Positions 29,623-33,378 of a stretch of DNA of 64,000 nt are shown here, one piece after another. A program made the translations under genes and the position numbers. Each line of letters opens with the position of its first letter. Within the stretch, counting starts at the first letter, position 1. The stretch is from a virus, in IMG/VR virus record IMGVR_UViG_3300047560_001569, positions 3,627-67,626 of that record, one strand, 5' to 3'. The notes under the pieces were generated by a model. It was given only the letters and a program-made list of their open reading frames with translations, did not search any database and was not told the origin of the DNA.

Positions 29623-29698
29623 TGGTACTCCGTGGGGGAATCGAACCCCTCCTTACCCGCGTGAAAGGCGAGTGTCCTAACCGATAGACGAACGGAGC
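29623..29698 (-). tRNA. tRNA-Glu(TTC)
   Basis: Cloverleaf; anticodon arm ctcgc-CTTTCAC-gcggg; encoded CCA. Confidence 0.9.
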
Positions 29699-29711
29699 AC
29701 ATATCTGGTTT

Positions 29712-29789
29712 TGGAGCAACGGGCTGGATTCGAACCAGCGGCTTTTGGGATTTGCAATCCCATGCATTGGGCCTCTCTGCCACCGTTGC
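29712..29789 (-). tRNA. tRNA-Cys(GCA)
   Basis: tggga-TTGCAAA-tccca; TTCGAAT; CCA. Confidence 0.9.
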
Positions 29790-29834
29790 AGTATCTAATT
29801 CATGTATTATACGCAATTTATATATCAATGTCAA

Positions 29835-29908
29835 TTGTACCTTGTGACGGAATCGAACTGCCGTCTGCGCCGTGTAAACACACGGCCCTACCATTAGACG
29901 AACGAGGC
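29835..29908 (-). pseudogene. Degenerate tRNA-Val(TAC)
   Basis: tRNA spacing with TTTACAC loop, but mismatches in acceptor, anticodon and T stems; 3' end CAA rather than CCA. Confidence 0.6.
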
Positions 29909-29911
29909 ATA

Positions 29912-29999
29912 TGGTGGAGGCTCTCCGATTCGAACAGAGAAGAGACAAAGCTAACAGATTTACAGTCTGCCCCCGACACCGTTACGGGACTAAACCTCC
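29912..29999 (-). tRNA. tRNA-Tyr(GTA)
   Basis: gcaga-CTGTAAA-tctgt; long variable arm; CCA. Confidence 0.85.
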
Positions 30000-30009
30000 A
30001 CACTTTTTT

Positions 30010-30085
30010 TGGCTGGCCAACCTGGGCTCGAACCAGGGACACCTTGATTAACAGTCAAGTGCTCTACCAACTGAGCTATAGGCCA
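30010..30085 (-). tRNA. tRNA-Asn(GTT)
   Basis: cttga-CTGTTAA-tcaag; CCA. Confidence 0.92.
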
Positions 30086-30090
30086 ATAAT

Positions 30091-30167
30091 TGGTTCCTCG
30101 ACTTGGATTTGAACCAAGGACCAATGGATTATGAGTCCACTGCTCTAACCAACTGAGCTATCGAGGA
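30091..30167 (-). tRNA. tRNA with CAT anticodon (Met or Ile2)
   Basis: gtgga-CTCATAA-tccat; CCA. Confidence 0.88.
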
Positions 30168-30409
30168 GTAATCTTTTTCTTTCTTAATTTCATTCCTATA
30201 AACGTACCACAAAAAGCTCCGATACCGGCTGGTATCAGCAACCAGTGATCTGTAGTATAGTTGATTACGGCTGTACTTGCGACAACAAACACGATTACTG
30301 CCCATGAGCTGGCCAGCAATGGTTTATCATGTTCTACAGATTTCAAATAATGTGTATAAAACAAATCTGTAAAAAATAATGCAAGAAACGTAACAACCCA
30401 ATCAACCAT
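30158..30409 (-). CDS. Small membrane protein inside the tRNA array
   Basis: Three hydrophobic segments; GGAG upstream. Confidence 0.6.
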   Translation of the reverse strand: MVDWVVTFLALFFTDLFYTHYLKSVEHDKPLLASSWAVIVFVVASTAVINYTTDHWLLIPAGIGAFCGTFIGMKLRKKKITPR

Positions 30410-30448
30410 AGATTTTAAATCTCCTTTTACTTTCCTTACCACAAAACT

Positions 30449-30523
30449 TGGTGCCGACTATCGGATTCGAACTGATGACCTATCGCTTACAAGGCGATTG
30501 CACTACCACTGTGCTAAGTCGGC
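30449..30523 (-). tRNA. tRNA-Thr(TGT)
   Basis: atcgc-CTTGTAA-gcgat; CCA. Confidence 0.92.
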
Positions 30524-30527
30524 TAAT

Positions 30528-30605
30528 TGGTCGGAGTACAAGGATTCGAACCTTGGACCCTCTGGTCCCAAACCAGATGCGCTAGCCAGACTGCGCTATA
30601 CTCCG
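30528..30605 (-). tRNA. tRNA-Pro(TGG)
   Basis: tctgg-TTTGGGA-ccaga; CCA. Confidence 0.92.
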
Positions 30606-30998
30606 AATTTTGGTGGTGATGGATGGAATCGAGCCATCGACCGACTGCGTATGAATTGGTAAGATAATTTCACCAAGAGTATGATCCATACTCCAAGTAT
30701 CCCAGTAATCAATCTTTACATACTTTCTTGGCAGTTTCTCTTTTTGTTTATCAATCCAAAGCAGAAACTTATACAACCACGTTTCATGGCGATCTCTATC
30801 CCATTTAGTGATATCGCCAACCTGTGGTTCTGGTTCTACACTACCATGCGCTAACCATTCACCAAAATTATGAACACGATCAGCAGGATGCTCAAATCCA
30901 AATTCATCTTTTTCTTTTGGAACCCAGAACATCAGCTTTTCAGCTAACTGATATGGTCCAAACCAGTTGCGAGGTTTTCCAATCCAAACTTTCATCAC
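30582..30998 (-). CDS. Conserved phage protein, probably C-terminally truncated
   Basis: WFGPYQLAE...IDYWDTWSMDHTL..IILP, then the frame reads through the half tRNA. Confidence 0.55.
   Translation of the reverse strand: MMKVWIGKPRNWFGPYQLAEKLMFWVPKEKDEFGFEHPADRVHNFGEWLAHGSVEPEPQVGDITKWDRDRHETWLYKFLLWIDKQKEKLPRKYVKIDYWDTWSMDHTLGEIILPIHTQSVDGSIPSITTKIRSIAQSG
30611..30655 (-). pseudogene. 3' half of a tRNA (CAT anticodon); 5' half absent
   Basis: TTCATAC-gcagt-cggtc-gatgg CTCGATT ccatc-catcacc-A-CCA, joined directly to coding sequence. Confidence 0.7.
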
Positions 30999-31195
30999 TC
31001 ACTCCCAATTTTGTTGATCAGAGTTTTATTCATTTCCATAGATCTTTCAAGCATTGTATCCAAGTGATCAATTCGATCTTCATAAAATTTAATCAAATCT
31101 TGAATGCGTTTTTCATGCTCAGCTTCACGCTCTTTCTTTTCAGCGGATAGTGCTTCAGCAACTGCTTTCCAATCTTCTTCATTGTCCCAAGGCAT
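30995..31195 (-). CDS. Small coiled-coil hypothetical protein
   Basis: AAGGAG RBS before MPWDNEED; the longer track ORF overlaps a tRNA. Confidence 0.6.
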   Translation of the reverse strand: MPWDNEEDWKAVAEALSAEKKEREAEHEKRIQDLIKFYEDRIDHLDTMLERSMEMNKTLINKIGSE

Positions 31196-31212
31196 ATACT
31201 TCTCCTTAAAGG

Positions 31213-31287
31213 TGGCTCCACAGGCAGGGATCGAACCTACGACCAATTGATTAACAGTCAACTGCACTACCGCTGTGCTACTGTGGA
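31213..31287 (-). tRNA. tRNA-Asn(GTT), second copy
   Basis: gttga-CTGTTAA-tcaat; CCA. Confidence 0.92.
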
Positions 31288-31375
31288 ATATAAACTTGAA
31301 AGTTCCGATACTACCCATCGTCACTTACAACCGTTGGGAAAGAGGTACAGCTTTCGCAAACATTTCCATTTGTTC

Positions 31376-31450
31376 TGGCGGTCTCAAGGGGTAACGATCC
31401 CCTTCTTCATGCGTGACAGGCATGCGTGCGTCCATGAACACTTTGAAACC
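31376..31450 (-). tRNA. tRNA-Asp(GTC) with atypical T-loop
   Basis: catgc-CTGTCAC-gcatg; T-loop ATCGTTA; CCA. Confidence 0.82.
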
Positions 31451-31454
31451 AAAT

Positions 31455-31526
31455 TGGTGCAGGGCTTCCACCTGCTGCTAATCAAACCTTTCGGTGATTA
31501 ATCTGCCTTGATCTATCCTCAAGGAC
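31455..31526 (-). ncRNA. Putative CCA-terminated three-hairpin non-tRNA RNA
   Basis: ccttga/tcaagg; taatca..ccGAAAgg..tgatta; gcagg/cctgc followed by ACCA. Confidence 0.45.
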
Positions 31527-31532
31527 TTTTAT

Positions 31533-31625
31533 TGGTGGAGGCAGTTGGAGTCGAACCAACAATGTTTACCACGAGGGAACGGATTTACAGTCCGCTGCAG
31601 AACACGCCATATCTACAATGCCTCC
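31533..31625 (-). tRNA. tRNA-Tyr(GTA), second copy
   Basis: gcgga-CTGTAAA-tccgt; long variable arm; CCA. Confidence 0.85.
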
Positions 31626-31633
31626 AAAAATTT

Positions 31634-31757
31634 CCATTAGTTTTGCTGACTGCACTATTTGCTATGCTCAACGGAATTGCTAGCTAGACGTACCGTTTAT
31701 GTACATAGTTACTCAGGCGTGATCAAGCCCATGGCTTACAATCAGCAAAACTAATGG
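31634..31757 (-). ncRNA. Putative structured RNA closed by a 16-21 bp terminal stem
   Basis: Perfect inverted repeat ccattagttttgctga (31634-49) / tcagcaaaactaatgg (31742-57). Confidence 0.55.
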
Positions 31758-31830
31758 TAGTCGGTGCGGGAATCGAACCCAGCCTTACTGCCGTGAAAGG
31801 GCAGTGTCCTAACCGATAGACGAACCGACC
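31755..31830 (-). tRNA. tRNA-Glu(TTC), second copy
   Basis: ctgcc-CTTTCAC-ggcag; CCA. Confidence 0.9.
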
Positions 31831-31982
31831 AAAGTGCAGAGGAAGCCCCCACCCAACGCATCTCTACAGTATCATTCTCCCAACGATACCCCTTACGTGG
31901 GGATTCCAGACGTAACTGGTAACTCCCCAATACCCCATGCTTGCGAATCGACACAAGACTCATAGAGGATTTCAGAACTACT

Positions 31983-32011
31983 ATTATACTACATATAAAA
32001 TTGCAAGACAA
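31983..32011 (-). promoter_or_regulatory. Sigma70-type promoter inside the tRNA array
   Basis: TTGTCT-N17-TATAAT. Confidence 0.7.
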
Positions 32012-32019
32012 TACTTTTT

Positions 32020-32094
32020 TGGCGTCCCGTGAGAGATTCGAACTCCTATCAACGGCGTGACAAGCCGCTATACTAACCATTATACTATGAGACC
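32020..32094 (-). tRNA. tRNA-Asp(GTC), second copy
   Basis: gcggc-TTGTCAC-gccgt; TTCGAAT; CCA; imperfect acceptor stem. Confidence 0.78.
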
Positions 32095-32098
32095 AAAT

Positions 32099-32183
32099 TG
32101 GTGGAGAATCAGGGATTCGAACCCCGTATACCTGAGGTGGAAGATTTACAGTCTCCTGAAGTCGCCAATGCTTCTCATTCTCC
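32099..32183 (-). tRNA. tRNA-Tyr(GTA), third copy
   Basis: ggaga-CTGTAAA-tcttc; long variable arm; CCA. Confidence 0.85.
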
Positions 32184-32277
32184 ATATAGAAACACACTAA
32201 TGGTTTTTCCCCGTATACAGGTAAATTTCCTCCACCAAAAGGACATCCAGCGCTAGATGTTAGTGTGTTTCTATATG
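32183..32277 (-). ncRNA. Putative four-way-junction RNA closed by an 18-bp stem
   Basis: Perfect inverted repeat catatagaaacacactaa (32183-200) / ttagtgtgtttctatatg (32260-77) enclosing three short hairpins. Confidence 0.55.
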
Positions 32278-32278
32278 A

Positions 32279-32431
32279 ACCATTTATTTAGTGCTATCGC
32301 GCCTATTTGTCAACAAATTAGCTAAATCTGACAAGCGAATAGCGGTTATATCAGGACCTGTTCCTCGCACAGTTAGGCCCGCATAGTATACACGTCTGCA
32401 CACGATACCCTGATAGCACTAAACAAATGGT
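32279..32431 (-). ncRNA. Putative structured RNA closed by a 20-bp stem
   Basis: Inverted repeat 32279-98 / 32412-31; its single mismatch is a G-U pair only on the minus strand. Confidence 0.55.
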
Positions 32432-32625
32432 GTAGGCTACGTCTTTCCATCTTCGCCCCTACATGAGTTGTTACCCTGTCCATCCCATTTATCCGGTACC
32501 TGTGTGCAGTTGGGATTCTGCCTATCAGAGTCTGAGTGGGTTACACTCGCTAACGGTTTTCTGCCACCGGATCTCTATCGTTAATCAAACGCTACTTTAA
32601 CGGAAGTAGTAACGGGATTCTTTTG
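32428..32625 (-). ncRNA. Putative multibranched RNA of about 200 nt ending in CCA, first element of the tRNA operon
   Basis: Nested pairings atcccgtt/aatgggat, atccggt/accggat, ctactt/aagtag; terminal gtagg/cctac-ACCA. Confidence 0.5.
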
Positions 32626-32635
32626 AACTGCGCCC

Positions 32636-32664
32636 AGTATACCTCTGTTTACATATTCCAGCAA
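32636..32664 (-). promoter_or_regulatory. Sigma70-type promoter heading the tRNA/ncRNA array
   Basis: TTGCTG-N17-TATACT just downstream of the yhhQ terminator. Confidence 0.7.
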
Positions 32665-32684
32665 CTAGCTATTACTAACCCATA

Positions 32685-32742: not shown

Positions 32743-33378
32743 CTATGTCCCCTGCTTTGCCTCGTCTAATTTATTTTGCAAATAATTCAACAAGACACCA
32801 TATGCCGGCAATATTACTAATAAACTAACAACAATCTTAGTAATACTTTGGTTTGTTGCAACGATGTGCCAATTATTTGACATGAATTCGTCTTTACCTC
32901 CAGCAAATGCTGTGAAGAAGAAAACATACGTATCAAAGAATGTAGACACAACTGAACTTAATGTAGGTGCGATCCACCACTGAGGGTACTTCTCACGGAA
33001 GTATTGGAATACATACACATCAAGTAAATTGCTAACAAAGTATGCTGTACCAGAACCTAATCCAATACGGAATGCTACCGATTCAGGAGCACCACCCGCT
33101 AGCACCACAAGAATGCTAACAACAATTGCTGGAATAAACGCTAAGCCAATCACTGCACGACCCAACTGTTTACCTAAAAGGCGAACAGTCAAGTCAGTAG
33201 CAACAACAACCAACGGAAATGTGAACGCCGCTGCTGCCAAAGGATAACCGAGTATTTCAAATTTGAATTGAACTAGCCAGTTGCTAAGAGCAATAACAAA
33301 TACATGAAACGCCATTATCTTATAGGCTAATGAACGATCAACACCAGATAATACTTTATCCAAAAGATTGTTAAACAT
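32743..33378 (-). CDS. yhhQ: Queuosine-precursor transporter (YhhQ/Vut_1 family)
   Basis: IALSNWLVQ, FTFPLVVVATDLTVRLLG, RIGLGS..AY, LDVYVF, WWIAP..S, DT..FF..AF. Confidence 0.85.
   Translation of the reverse strand: MFNNLLDKVLSGVDRSLAYKIMAFHVFVIALSNWLVQFKFEILGYPLAAAAFTFPLVVVATDLTVRLLGKQLGRAVIGLAFIPAIVVSILVVLAGGAPESVAFRIGLGSGTAYFVSNLLDVYVFQYFREKYPQWWIAPTLSSVVSTFFDTYVFFFTAFAGGKDEFMSNNWHIVATNQSITKIVVSLLVILPAYGVLLNYLQNKLDEAKQGT

What the first reader, a model, noticed from the sequence alone, without database searches (positions are those of the whole stretch)
31290..32665. tRNA operon interleaved with a series of unexplained structured non-coding RNAs
Seen: between the promoter at 32636-32664 and tRNA-Asn at 31287, about 800 nt are neither tRNA nor credible coding sequence. 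They form discrete structured units. Three are closed by long terminal stems (16, 18 and 20 bp), two end in a hairpin plus ACCA, and one follows its own promoter. Unit boundaries coincide with tRNA 5' ends or CCA ends. Known: T4 tRNA clusters yield stable non-tRNA species (band C and D RNAs), and large ncRNAs such as GOLLD and ROOL sit in phage tRNA regions. Inference: the phage uses tRNA processing (RNase P and 3' trimming) as punctuation to release several different small RNAs, such as decoys for defence proteins or tRNA mimics.
Basis: partly seen in the sequence, partly recalled or inferred. Interest (0 to 1): 0.85.

Follow-up and report, generated by a model that had tools for sequence, protein, structure and literature searches.

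The report
Folded RNA genes between phage tRNAs
The gaps between the tRNA genes of this uncultured lake phage hold several real, conserved, intricately folded small RNA genes from uncatalogued families shared by well over a hundred related phages, and what these RNAs do is still unknown.

Summary
About 940 nt between 32635 and 31288 (minus strand) are neither tRNA nor credible ORF. They split into seven units.

Well supported:
- U1 (32628-32428) is a ~190-nt doubly pseudoknotted RNA with 115 full-length homologues. Of 43 pairs, 21 show compensatory change.
- U2 (32432-32277) and U5 (31758-31627) are RNAs closed by 21-22-bp stalks that start on the CCA/ACCA of the RNA before them. They have 26 and 33 homologues and strong covariation.
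- All 26 aligned U5 members carry a palindromic loop, in 11 different versions. This points to a kissing dimer.

Less supported:
- U3 shares a stalk type that carries interchangeable tips.
- U6 has one homologue, with compensatory changes in all three hairpins.
- U4 is a conserved internal promoter plus leader.
- U7 holds only a conserved 45-nt block.

Other results:
- No unit matches Rfam 15, GenBank phages or the phage T4 rnaC/rnaD region.
- The "hairpin plus ACCA" ends are not conserved (1 of 92 for U1), so tRNA mimicry is unsupported.
- Release by tRNA processing is inferred, not shown.
- The scan found these families before on other DNA (for example e1-5731621, e1-5946219, e1-5377344).

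Verdict: a real feature, made of new RNA families of a known kind (stable RNAs of phage tRNA clusters), with function open.

The parts
32636..32664 (-). Putative array promoter (TTGCTG, 17 nt, TATACT), just after the terminator-like hairpin of the Vut_1 gene (about 32717-32687)
   Evidence: Read from the sequence. It is below the threshold of the promoter scan, so it is weak. Other promoter-proximal U1 copies also have AT-rich -10-like flanks (by eye).
32428..32628 (-). U1: ~190-nt RNA with 11 helices and two pseudoknots. The pseudoknots are 32614-32613 with 32602-32601, and the loop at 32516-32512 with 32486-32482.
   Evidence: nhmmer gave 115 full-length homologues, E 1e-38 to 1e-56. In alignment A4 (92 sequences), 43 pairs are 96.6% paired, 21 show changes on both sides, and 0 of 500 shuffles reach this. 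Coordinates. No Rfam match.
32277..32432 (-). U2: 153-nt RNA closed by a 21-bp stalk (32432-32412 with 32298-32278). The 5' arm begins with the ACCA that follows U1.
   Evidence: 26 nhmmer homologues. In A5 (18 sequences), 54 pairs are 94.7% paired, 34 show changes on both sides, and 0 of 500 shuffles reach this.
32184..32279 (-). U3: 95-nt hairpin cassette with a 17-bp or longer stalk and three small hairpins. It ends 1 nt before tRNA-Tyr.
   Evidence: z -5.44. L176 is a near-identical copy with one G-C to A-U compensatory change. L135 has the same stalk with a different interior. Stalk family with many tips.
32099..32183 (-). tRNA-Tyr (GTA), long variable arm
   Evidence: ARAGORN. Only 24.2 bits, as tRNA-Sec-like, in Rfam.
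32020..32093 (-). tRNA-Asp (GTC)
31983..32011 (-). Internal sigma-70-like promoter (TTGTCT, 17 nt, TATAAT)
   Evidence: Promoter scan, 10 of 12. Conserved as TTGACT, 17 nt, TATAAT in L104 and L110.
31831..31982 (-). U4: leader of the second transcript. Its first ~55 nt are conserved; the rest is unique to the window.
   Evidence: 3 nhmmer hits, covering query positions 9-98 only. Alignment A8. z -1.16.
31755..31830 (-). tRNA-Glu (TTC). Its CCA is the first three pairs of the U5 stalk.
31627..31758 (-). U5: ~125-nt RNA closed by a 22-pair stalk (31758-31734 with 31655-31633), with a palindromic loop CUAGCUAG at 31687-31680
   Evidence: 33 homologues. In A6 (26 sequences), 39 pairs are 96.7% paired, 23 show changes on both sides, and 0 of 500 shuffles reach this. 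A palindrome is present in 26 of 26, in 11 versions.
31533..31625 (-). tRNA-Tyr (GTA), 93 nt, unusual D region
   Evidence: 30.7 bits. Most of it, including the D region, is identical in L110; the T-arm and acceptor ends differ.
31451..31532 (-). U6: three-hairpin RNA whose last hairpin has a 7-nt UGGAAGC loop. It is absent from near-identical relatives.
   Evidence: L210 is a homologue in which all three stems changed compensatorily. One RNA-library contig joins 31451 to 31533 with 0 differences, and one DNA-run contig joins 31453 to 31531. z -2.15.
31376..31450 (-). tRNA-Asp (GTC) with T-loop AUCGUUA
   Evidence: ARAGORN. No Rfam tRNA hit at E up to 10. Its 22-mer is present in 22 viral contigs.
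31288..31375 (-). U7: spacer with a conserved ~45-nt block in its 3' half and no significant fold
   Evidence: z +0.12. The block is conserved in L107 and L188. Contigs joining 31290 to 31376 exist in X1 and X20.
31213..31287 (-). tRNA-Asn (GTT)

Best explanation
The non-tRNA sequence is a mosaic of independent small-RNA genes that behave as cassettes of phage tRNA arrays.

SHOWN:
- At least four units (U1, U2, U5, U6) keep their base pairing through compensatory changes in other phages.
- They always lie on the tRNA strand.
- They occur in different orders in different arrays.
- U1 is single-copy and sits inside the array in five large phage genomes.
- The stalks of U2 and U5 start on the CCA of the preceding RNA. 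They usually end within a few nucleotides of the next tRNA.
- U5 keeps a self-complementary loop.

INFERRED:
- The array is transcribed from two host-type promoters as polycistronic precursors.
- RNase P cutting at each tRNA 5' end, plus cutting and trimming at each CCA, frees the tRNAs and thereby the RNAs between them.
- The ~20-bp stalk hides both ends of the excised RNA, so it resists exonucleases and can accumulate. The stalk may also be a host RNase III site.
- The freed RNAs then act in trans: U1 as a compact pseudoknotted RNA that binds a protein or ligand, and U5 as a kissing-loop homodimer.
- Their targets are unknown.
For: Homologues:
- nhmmer found 115 full-length copies.
- There are 26 U2 and 33 U5 homologues among 234 loci.

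Covariation:
- U1: 21 of 43 pairs.
- U2: 34 of 54 pairs.
- U5: 23 of 39 pairs.
- In each case 0 of 500 shuffles reached the observed values, and slid controls paired only 31-45% of cells.
- Conserved G-U pairs, for example GU in 26 of 26 and UG in 25 of 26 in the U5 stalk, would be A-C on the other strand.

Position:
- The nearest tRNA is on the same strand for 124 of 124, 24 of 24 and 33 of 33 hits.
- Of 102 distinct U1 copies, 70 have a tRNA or tmRNA starting within 30 nt downstream. Tabulated gaps are mostly 3-6 nt. tRNA-Asp accounts for 52 of the 70.
- 56 of the 102 abut an upstream tRNA.
- 60 of 92 aligned U1 copies follow a CCA end.

Stalks:
- Gapless stems of at least 12 bp anchored on the CCA occur at 81 of 1650 distinct tRNA 3' ends, against 5 of 1650 in shuffles. 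68 of them are at least 17 bp.
- 56 of 81 stalks end within 15 nt of the next tRNA or U1.
- The outermost stalk pairs covary: ACC/GGU changes to GUU/AAC.

Other:
- The palindromic loop is present in 26 of 26 U5 members, in 11 versions.
- Each of five 150-190-kb genomes, four of them complete, has exactly one U1 block, inside arrays of 23-28 tRNAs.
- Contigs about 90% identical to U1, U2 and U5 stand in a metatranscriptomic library (X19).
Against: - No read-level RNA data exist. The runs were contigs only, which cannot show ends, strand or abundance, and an RNA library can hold DNA.
- No partner protein was found. Neighbouring genes reflect synteny only. No phage-encoded RNase III, Ro or RtcB was found in four complete genomes.
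- U4 and U7 fold no better than shuffles.
- U3 and U6 rest on one or two relatives.
- The first promoter is weak.
- U6, U7 and U4 are missing from contigs of close relatives, so they are dispensable.
- Cassette shuffling is equally what a selfish element would show.
Confidence: 0.6

Rival explanations
1. The units act only in cis. They are processing and folding spacers (insulators, RNase III or RNase E sites, 3'-end clamps) that make tRNA maturation efficient. Once cut out they are waste.
For: Stalks are anchored exactly on CCA ends and end next to the following tRNA. The stalk type of U3 carries 26 different tip families among 36 members, as if the tip did not matter. U4 is simply a promoter plus leader. 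Another agent of this scan reached an RNase III reading (e1-5946219).
Against: U1, U2 and U5 conserve many unpaired nucleotides and internal helices far from the tRNA junctions. U1 is kept intact in the window although it touches no tRNA there. The U5 loop stays palindromic in 26 of 26 members, which a spacer does not need. Most tRNA junctions in the same arrays have no such unit: 1569 of 1650 lack a stem of at least 12 bp.
Confidence: 0.2
2. The units are selfish mobile cassettes, either MITE-like inverted-repeat DNA or elements spread by homing endonucleases. They colonise tRNA junctions and persist without benefit to the phage.
For: Presence/absence differences occur exactly at tRNA junctions between near-identical sequences (U6: 0 differences in the flanks). 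The order of units is shuffled between arrays. Terminal inverted repeats are present. HNH endonuclease genes lie near the arrays in 16 of 117 loci.
Against: Orientation is always that of the tRNAs. Conserved G-U pairs and compensatory changes in internal helices show selection on the RNA, not on a DNA repeat. U1 has no terminal repeat and is single-copy in five genomes. No transposase was seen. No target duplication was looked for systematically.
Confidence: 0.1
3. This is the first reader's specific idea: the RNAs are tRNA mimics or decoys that soak up tRNA-targeting defence nucleases.
For: Location among tRNAs. The array is rich in Tyr, Asp and Asn tRNAs. From recall, these belong to the group cut by some anticodon nucleases. 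The last U6 hairpin has a 5-bp stem and 7-nt loop like a T arm.
Against: No unit scores as tRNA or as a tRNA-like family. ACCA tails are kept in 1 of 92 U1 copies and not in the U6 homologue. The near-invariant GGACAG of U1, complementary to the Asp anticodon loop, does not covary with the identity of the neighbouring tRNA.
Confidence: 0.07
4. The cassettes are templates for a reverse transcriptase, like the variable ncRNA arrays of phage UG27 systems.
For: A 2026 preprint describes phage ncRNA arrays of ~150-nt units, with a basal hairpin and a pseudoknot, that gain and lose units (section 9 of 10.64898/2026.09.22.753630).
Against: No RVT_1 match in the window's record. None in 5 of 5 U1-bearing genomes, four of them complete.
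Confidence: 0.02

Closest known systems
Phage T4 stable RNAs rnaC (species 1, 139 nt) and rnaD (species 2, 119 nt)
   Same: They are small non-tRNA RNAs encoded on the tRNA strand inside a T4-type phage tRNA cluster, next to tRNA ends, with function unknown (annotation; passages of PMC3014915 and PMC9697503). rnaD is followed by CCA in the DNA, and rnaC has a tRNA-like T arm.
   Different: No sequence similarity. nhmmer profiles of U1, U2, U5 and the sister class find nothing in the T4 region, and blastn of U1 and U5 finds nothing in 50,697 phage records. The T4 RNAs have no CCA-anchored 20-bp stalk. No pseudoknot or palindromic loop was looked for in them.
ROOL and GOLLD RNAs
   Same: They are phage and prophage structured RNAs of unknown function, 'often near tRNA islands', and they form RNA-only homo-oligomers (passages of PMC12286853). 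The self-complementary U5 loop suggests self-association as well.
   Different: ROOL and GOLLD are far larger; the paper says many GOLLD members exceed 800 nt. No Rfam match to either was found here. Oligomerisation of U5 is inferred from sequence only.
RNase III processing stalks of rRNA operons and phage T7 RNase III sites (recalled knowledge)
   Same: A helix of about two turns, formed by the sequences flanking a mature RNA, in a polycistronic stable-RNA transcript.
   Different: Here the helix starts on a tRNA CCA end and encloses RNAs of 40-180 nt. Cleavage by RNase III is untested. The phages encode no RNase III of their own (0 of 5 records).
UG27 reverse-transcriptase ncRNA arrays of phages (bioRxiv 10.64898/2026.09.22.753630)
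   Same: Arrays of structurally related ~150-nt units with a basal hairpin, in phages, with gain and loss of single units.
   Different: No reverse transcriptase is present. The units here are interleaved with tRNAs and belong to several unrelated folds.

Membership tests
T4-type stable RNAs of phage tRNA clusters (rnaC/rnaD) | Encoded within a phage tRNA gene cluster on the tRNA strand | tested here: met
T4-type stable RNAs of phage tRNA clusters (rnaC/rnaD) | Accumulates as a discrete stable RNA cut from the tRNA precursor | not testable with these tools
   Only contigs of RNA libraries could be laid.
T4-type stable RNAs of phage tRNA clusters (rnaC/rnaD) | Sequence or profile similarity to T4 rnaC or rnaD | tested here: not met
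   No nhmmer hit in the T4 region at E up to 10. No blastn match in GenBank phages.
Any Rfam 15 family (including GOLLD, ROOL, manA, YrlA, tmRNA, RNase P, known ribozymes) | Covariance-model score at or above the gathering threshold | tested here: not met
   Only tRNA reaches threshold in the window. At E up to 10, nothing meaningful lies on the units: mir-19 at 22.9 of 50 bits on the U5 hairpin. The result was the same in 8 further loci.
RNase III processing stalk | Uninterrupted double helix of about 20 bp formed by the flanks of a mature RNA | tested here: met
   U2 has 21 pairs and U5 has 22 pairs. 68 of 81 CCA-anchored stems are at least 17 bp.
RNase III processing stalk | Cleaved by RNase III | not testable with these tools
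   No phage-encoded RNase III was found (0 of 5 records). The host enzyme would be needed.
MITE-like inverted-repeat DNA element | Selection on the DNA repeat irrespective of strand and orientation | tested here: not met
   The units are always on the tRNA strand. Conserved G-U pairs and internal covarying helices are present.
Retron or UG27-type RT template RNA | A reverse transcriptase gene in the same genome | tested here: not met
   0 of 1 own record and 0 of 5 relatives.
Bacterial Y RNA (YrlA) with Ro | YrlA model match and a TROVE/Ro gene | tested here: not met
   YrlA hits lie only across tRNAs, at 23-26 of 69 bits. TROVE was found in 0 of 5 records.
tRNA mimic or tRNA-like structure | Conserved acceptor-like end with NCCA and a tRNA-like fold | tested here: not met
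   ACCA is kept in 1 of 92 U1 copies. The U6 homologue ends in ACCU. There are no tRNA-clan hits on the units.
Kissing-loop homodimeric RNA | A loop that stays self-complementary while its sequence changes | tested here: met
   U5: a 6-10-nt perfect palindrome at the same loop position in 26 of 26 members, in 11 distinct versions.
Kissing-loop homodimeric RNA | Physical dimer | not testable with these tools
   Needs native gels or size-exclusion chromatography.

The most novel reading that the evidence does not exclude
Phage tRNA arrays double as expression platforms for a large, exchangeable repertoire of small RNAs. A constant CCA-anchored stalk would act as a universal excision-and-stabilisation scaffold that displays interchangeable folded tips: at least 43 tip families in the loci held here. 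Alongside these sit dedicated machines such as the doubly pseudoknotted U1, possibly a ribozyme or ligand-binding RNA tied to the Tyr-Asp tRNA pair, and the self-dimerising U5. Together they would form an RNA-based toolkit for host takeover or counter-defence with no protein partner encoded by the phage.
Probability: 0.2. Interest if true: 0.9.

Novelty: new variant of a known kind. Interest (0 to 1): 0.72.

Why it matters
The roles of the two stable non-tRNA RNAs of the phage T4 tRNA cluster are still unknown (passages of PMC3014915, 2010, and PMC9697503, 2022).

This window shows that such RNAs are not a T4 oddity. Uncultured T4-sized and larger phages carry several distinct, strongly conserved RNA folds in their tRNA arrays, and none of the folds is in Rfam. 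The features found are concrete enough to test at the bench:
- pseudoknots in U1;
- a helix that covaries with the tRNA CCA end;
- a loop that always stays self-complementary.

If the RNAs prove to be trans-acting, they would add a new layer of phage biology carried by RNA alone. They would also give structural biology several compact natural RNA folds.

Tried and rejected
Searches for relatives that led nowhere:
- Relatives found through the upstream Vut_1 transporter gene: 15 loci, none with a tRNA nearby.
- The 67-aa ORF downstream: no relatives in viral contigs, and only one remote protein.
- Relatives found through the 138-aa ORF: 80 loci kept of 123. These share only tRNAs with the region.
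- An exact 24-mer of U1: no viral contig.
- The genome-contig scan with the U1 block: one archaeal MAG contig, not confirmed by nhmmer, so taken as chance.

Ideas tested and dropped:
- Known Rfam family.
- Homology to T4 rnaC/rnaD.
- Reverse-transcriptase template.
- A phage-encoded RNase III, Ro or RtcB partner: 0 of 5 records each.
- A conserved RNA-related neighbour gene. The ten commonest ORF clusters within 5 kb of U1 include dCMP deaminase, an RNaseH_like (PF04308) protein, HNH, Cpn10, Hsp20, a DnaB-like helicase and unknowns.
- U1's GGACAG as a codon-like specifier for the downstream tRNA. The GGUCAG variants are followed by Asp, Tyr or tmRNA, so there is no covariation.
- U4 as a sister class of U1. 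It lacks the shared 3' domain.
- The TTGACA inside U2 as a promoter. It is a paired, covarying helix strand.
- RNase P-like, HDV-like and hammerhead-like readings of U1. These were considered by eye only and have no support from Rfam.

Limits of the read laying:
- Parts of the stretch without cover in X2, X19 and X20 are no finding.
- Supplements of the papers were not opened.
Full report
WHAT IS THERE

The window belongs to a 67.6-kb viral record estimated 36% complete. The two runs that hold most of the stretch carry freshwater labels: X1 holds 0.83 of the sampled words and X2 holds 0.33.

On the minus strand, ARAGORN finds six tRNAs between 32183 and 31213: Tyr, Asp, Glu, Tyr, Asp and Asn. 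The remaining ~940 nt between the putative promoter at 32664-32636 and tRNA-Asn have no credible ORF. The only ORF above 59 aa reads through three tRNA genes. I split the stretch into seven units:
- U1: 32628-32428
- U2: 32432-32277
- U3: 32279-32184
- U4: 31982-31831, behind a promoter at 32011-31983
- U5: 31758-31627
- U6: 31532-31451
- U7: 31375-31288

Single-sequence folding supports U3 (z -5.44), U5 (-3.09) and, weakly, U6 (-2.15). It does not support U4 (-1.16) or U7 (+0.12).

NOT A KNOWN FAMILY

Rfam 15 at gathering thresholds finds only tRNAs in the window. With E up to 10, the units attract only noise. The same holds for eight other loci that carry the units. blastn of U1 and of U5 against 50,697 GenBank phage records gives no match. 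Profiles of U1, U2, U5 and a sister class of U1 find nothing in the phage T4 tRNA region, which holds rnaC and rnaD.

RELATIVES

Protein-anchored searches failed to bring homologous spacers.

Laying contigs of four public runs showed ~90% identical relatives of U1, U2 and U5. It also showed deletion variants at tRNA junctions.

A 22-mer of the unusual tRNA-Asp fetched 22 viral contigs, and a 20-mer of U1 fetched two metagenome contigs. In these the units reappear, but in other orders.

It hit one prokaryote contig that nhmmer did not confirm.

Among the 234 loci held, nhmmer finds 115 full-length U1 copies. It also finds 26 U2, 33 U5, 1 U3, 3 U4, 1 U6 and 2 U7 homologues.

U1

In 92 distinct sequences (A4) I counted a structure of 43 pairs in 11 helices. 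It combines the RNAalifold consensus with one helix and two pseudoknots that I found by scanning all column pairs. The result:
- 96.6% of cells are paired.
- 21 pairs show changes on both sides.
- 0 of 500 shuffles reach any measure.
- Slid controls pair 31-39% of cells.

The loop AUCCC (32516-32512) pairs with GGGAU (32486-32482), and all five of those pairs show compensatory change.

Many unpaired positions are invariant.

U1 starts 1-3 nt after a CCA end in 60 of 92 copies.

Of 102 distinct copies, 70 have a tRNA or tmRNA starting within 30 nt downstream. Tabulated gaps are mostly 3-6 nt. tRNA-Asp accounts for 52 of the 70. tRNA-Tyr directly precedes 26 copies and tRNA-Glu precedes 16.

Each of five 150-190-kb genomes, four of them complete, has exactly one U1 block inside an array of 23-28 tRNAs.

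A sister class shares the 5' start and the 3' domain but has another middle. The window has none.

The ACCA after U1 in the window is unique: 1 of 92 copies has it. It is really the first four bases of the U2 stalk.

STALK-CLOSED UNITS

U2 (18 sequences) has 54 pairs, 94.7% paired, with 34 showing changes on both sides. U5 (26 sequences) has 39 pairs, 96.7% paired, with 23 showing changes on both sides. In both, 0 of 500 shuffles reach the observed values.

Both stalks begin on the CCA of the RNA before them. In U5 the outer pairs switch together from ACC/GGU to GUU/AAC. Conserved G-U pairs fix the strand as that of the tRNAs.

Across the loci, gapless stems of at least 12 bp anchored on a tRNA CCA occur at 81 of 1650 distinct tRNA 3' ends, against 5 of 1650 in shuffles. 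Of these, 68 are at least 17 bp. They follow 40 of 98 tRNA-Glu genes. 56 of 81 end within 15 nt of the next tRNA or U1.

Stalk families differ. The CCAUAUAGAA type, to which I assign U3's stalk by eye (U3 itself was not in the clustering), has 36 members with 26 different tips of 38-176 nt. The U5 and U2 stalks each carry essentially one tip. L135 has U3's stalk with another interior.

The -35-like TTGACA inside U2 is one strand of a helix in which 4 of 6 pairs change compensatorily. It therefore need not be a promoter.

U5 LOOP

All 26 members carry a perfect 6-10-nt palindrome at the same place in an ~18-nt loop. There are 11 different versions, and the central four bases also stay palindromic. 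A hairpin does not need that. A loop-loop dimer does.

OTHER UNITS

- U6 has one homologue (L210). All three of its stems differ compensatorily, the 7-nt loop UGGAAGC is kept, and the tail reads ACCU.
- A contig of an RNA library joins 31451 to 31533 with no differences in 153 flanking bases. A DNA-run contig joins 31453 to 31531. So close relatives lack U6.
- U4's conserved part is the promoter and ~55 nt of leader.
- U7 shares a 45-nt block with two loci.

MECHANISM

Shown: conserved RNA structure, strand, placement at tRNA ends, cassette behaviour and the self-complementary loop.

Inferred: co-transcription, release by RNase P and 3' processing, protection of the excised RNA by the stalk, possible RNase III cutting, and action in trans.

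No partner was found. There is no reverse transcriptase, RNase III, Ro or RtcB in the genomes tested. Neighbouring genes show synteny only. The near-invariant GGACAG of U1 does not track the neighbouring tRNA.

COMPARISON

The closest known things are:
- ROOL and GOLLD, phage RNAs 'often near tRNA islands' that form RNA-only oligomers (passages of PMC12286853);
- RNase III stalks of rRNA operons (recalled);
- UG27 ncRNA arrays (section 9 of the preprint).

Four full-text searches listed no paper describing these families. Subscription journals and supplements were not covered.

PRIOR NOTES OF THIS SCAN

The same families were reported before on other DNA:
- a ~190-nt pseudoknotted RNA with sister classes (e1-5731621, e1-6106348);
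- stem-clamped cassettes (e1-6142509, e1-5946219);
- the self-pairing loop (e1-5377334, e1-5377344).

My tests here agree with them.

VERDICT

These are new RNA families of a known kind. Interest 0.72.

Noticed in passing
window 31376-31450 (minus): This tRNA-Asp(GTC) has a regular cloverleaf but its T-loop reads AUCGUUA, with A where T54 and U where A58 normally stand. Rfam's tRNA model gives no hit at E up to 10. Even so, its 22-mer is exact in 22 viral contigs, and tRNA-Asp is the usual downstream neighbour of U1.
   Followed up: partly
window 29623-32183 and 32743-33378: The tRNA set is rich in GUN anticodons (Tyr x2, Asp x2, Asn x2). It lies directly downstream of a Vut_1/YhhQ-type transporter gene (Pfam E 3e-24). 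From recall, this transporter family imports queuosine precursors.
   Followed up: no
window 30610-30655 (minus): The last ~20 codons of ORF 30582-30998 look like the T arm, acceptor strand and CCA of a tRNA. Most relatives of the protein match only residues 2-118. L104 and L107 align over 30655-30524 (L104) or 30636-30527 (L107) at ~80%. This looks like a truncated tRNA remnant fused to the ORF.
   Followed up: partly
window 29838-29908 and 29916-29999 (minus): Rfam sees a weak tRNA (32.7 bits) and a tRNA-Sec-like match (27.4 bits) that ARAGORN did not call.
   Followed up: no
window 31561 to 32134: One contig of DNA run X1 joins the two tRNA-Tyr genes and skips 572 nt. Other joints skip U4 (31841 to 32016) or part of U2 (32302 to 32402). 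The array is recombinationally plastic in nature. Joints at 80% likeness may come from other phages.
   Followed up: no
window about 32622-32609 and 31979-31968 (minus): Both transcripts seem to begin with a similar short motif: GTTCAAAAGAATCC after the first promoter and GTTCTGAAATCC after the second. The second is conserved in L104 and L110. Another note of this scan (e1-5731144) reports a boxA-like start of phage tRNA arrays. I did not test this.
   Followed up: no
L051, L052, L053, L066, L073 and others: ARAGORN called 21 tmRNA genes in the related phage loci. None is in the window.
   Followed up: no
window 32460-32433 and 31476-31455 (minus): The terminal hairpins of U1 and U6 both present a loop containing UGGAA. 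From recall, this resembles a T-loop-type motif. It is conserved in U1 homologues and in the U6 homologue.
   Followed up: no
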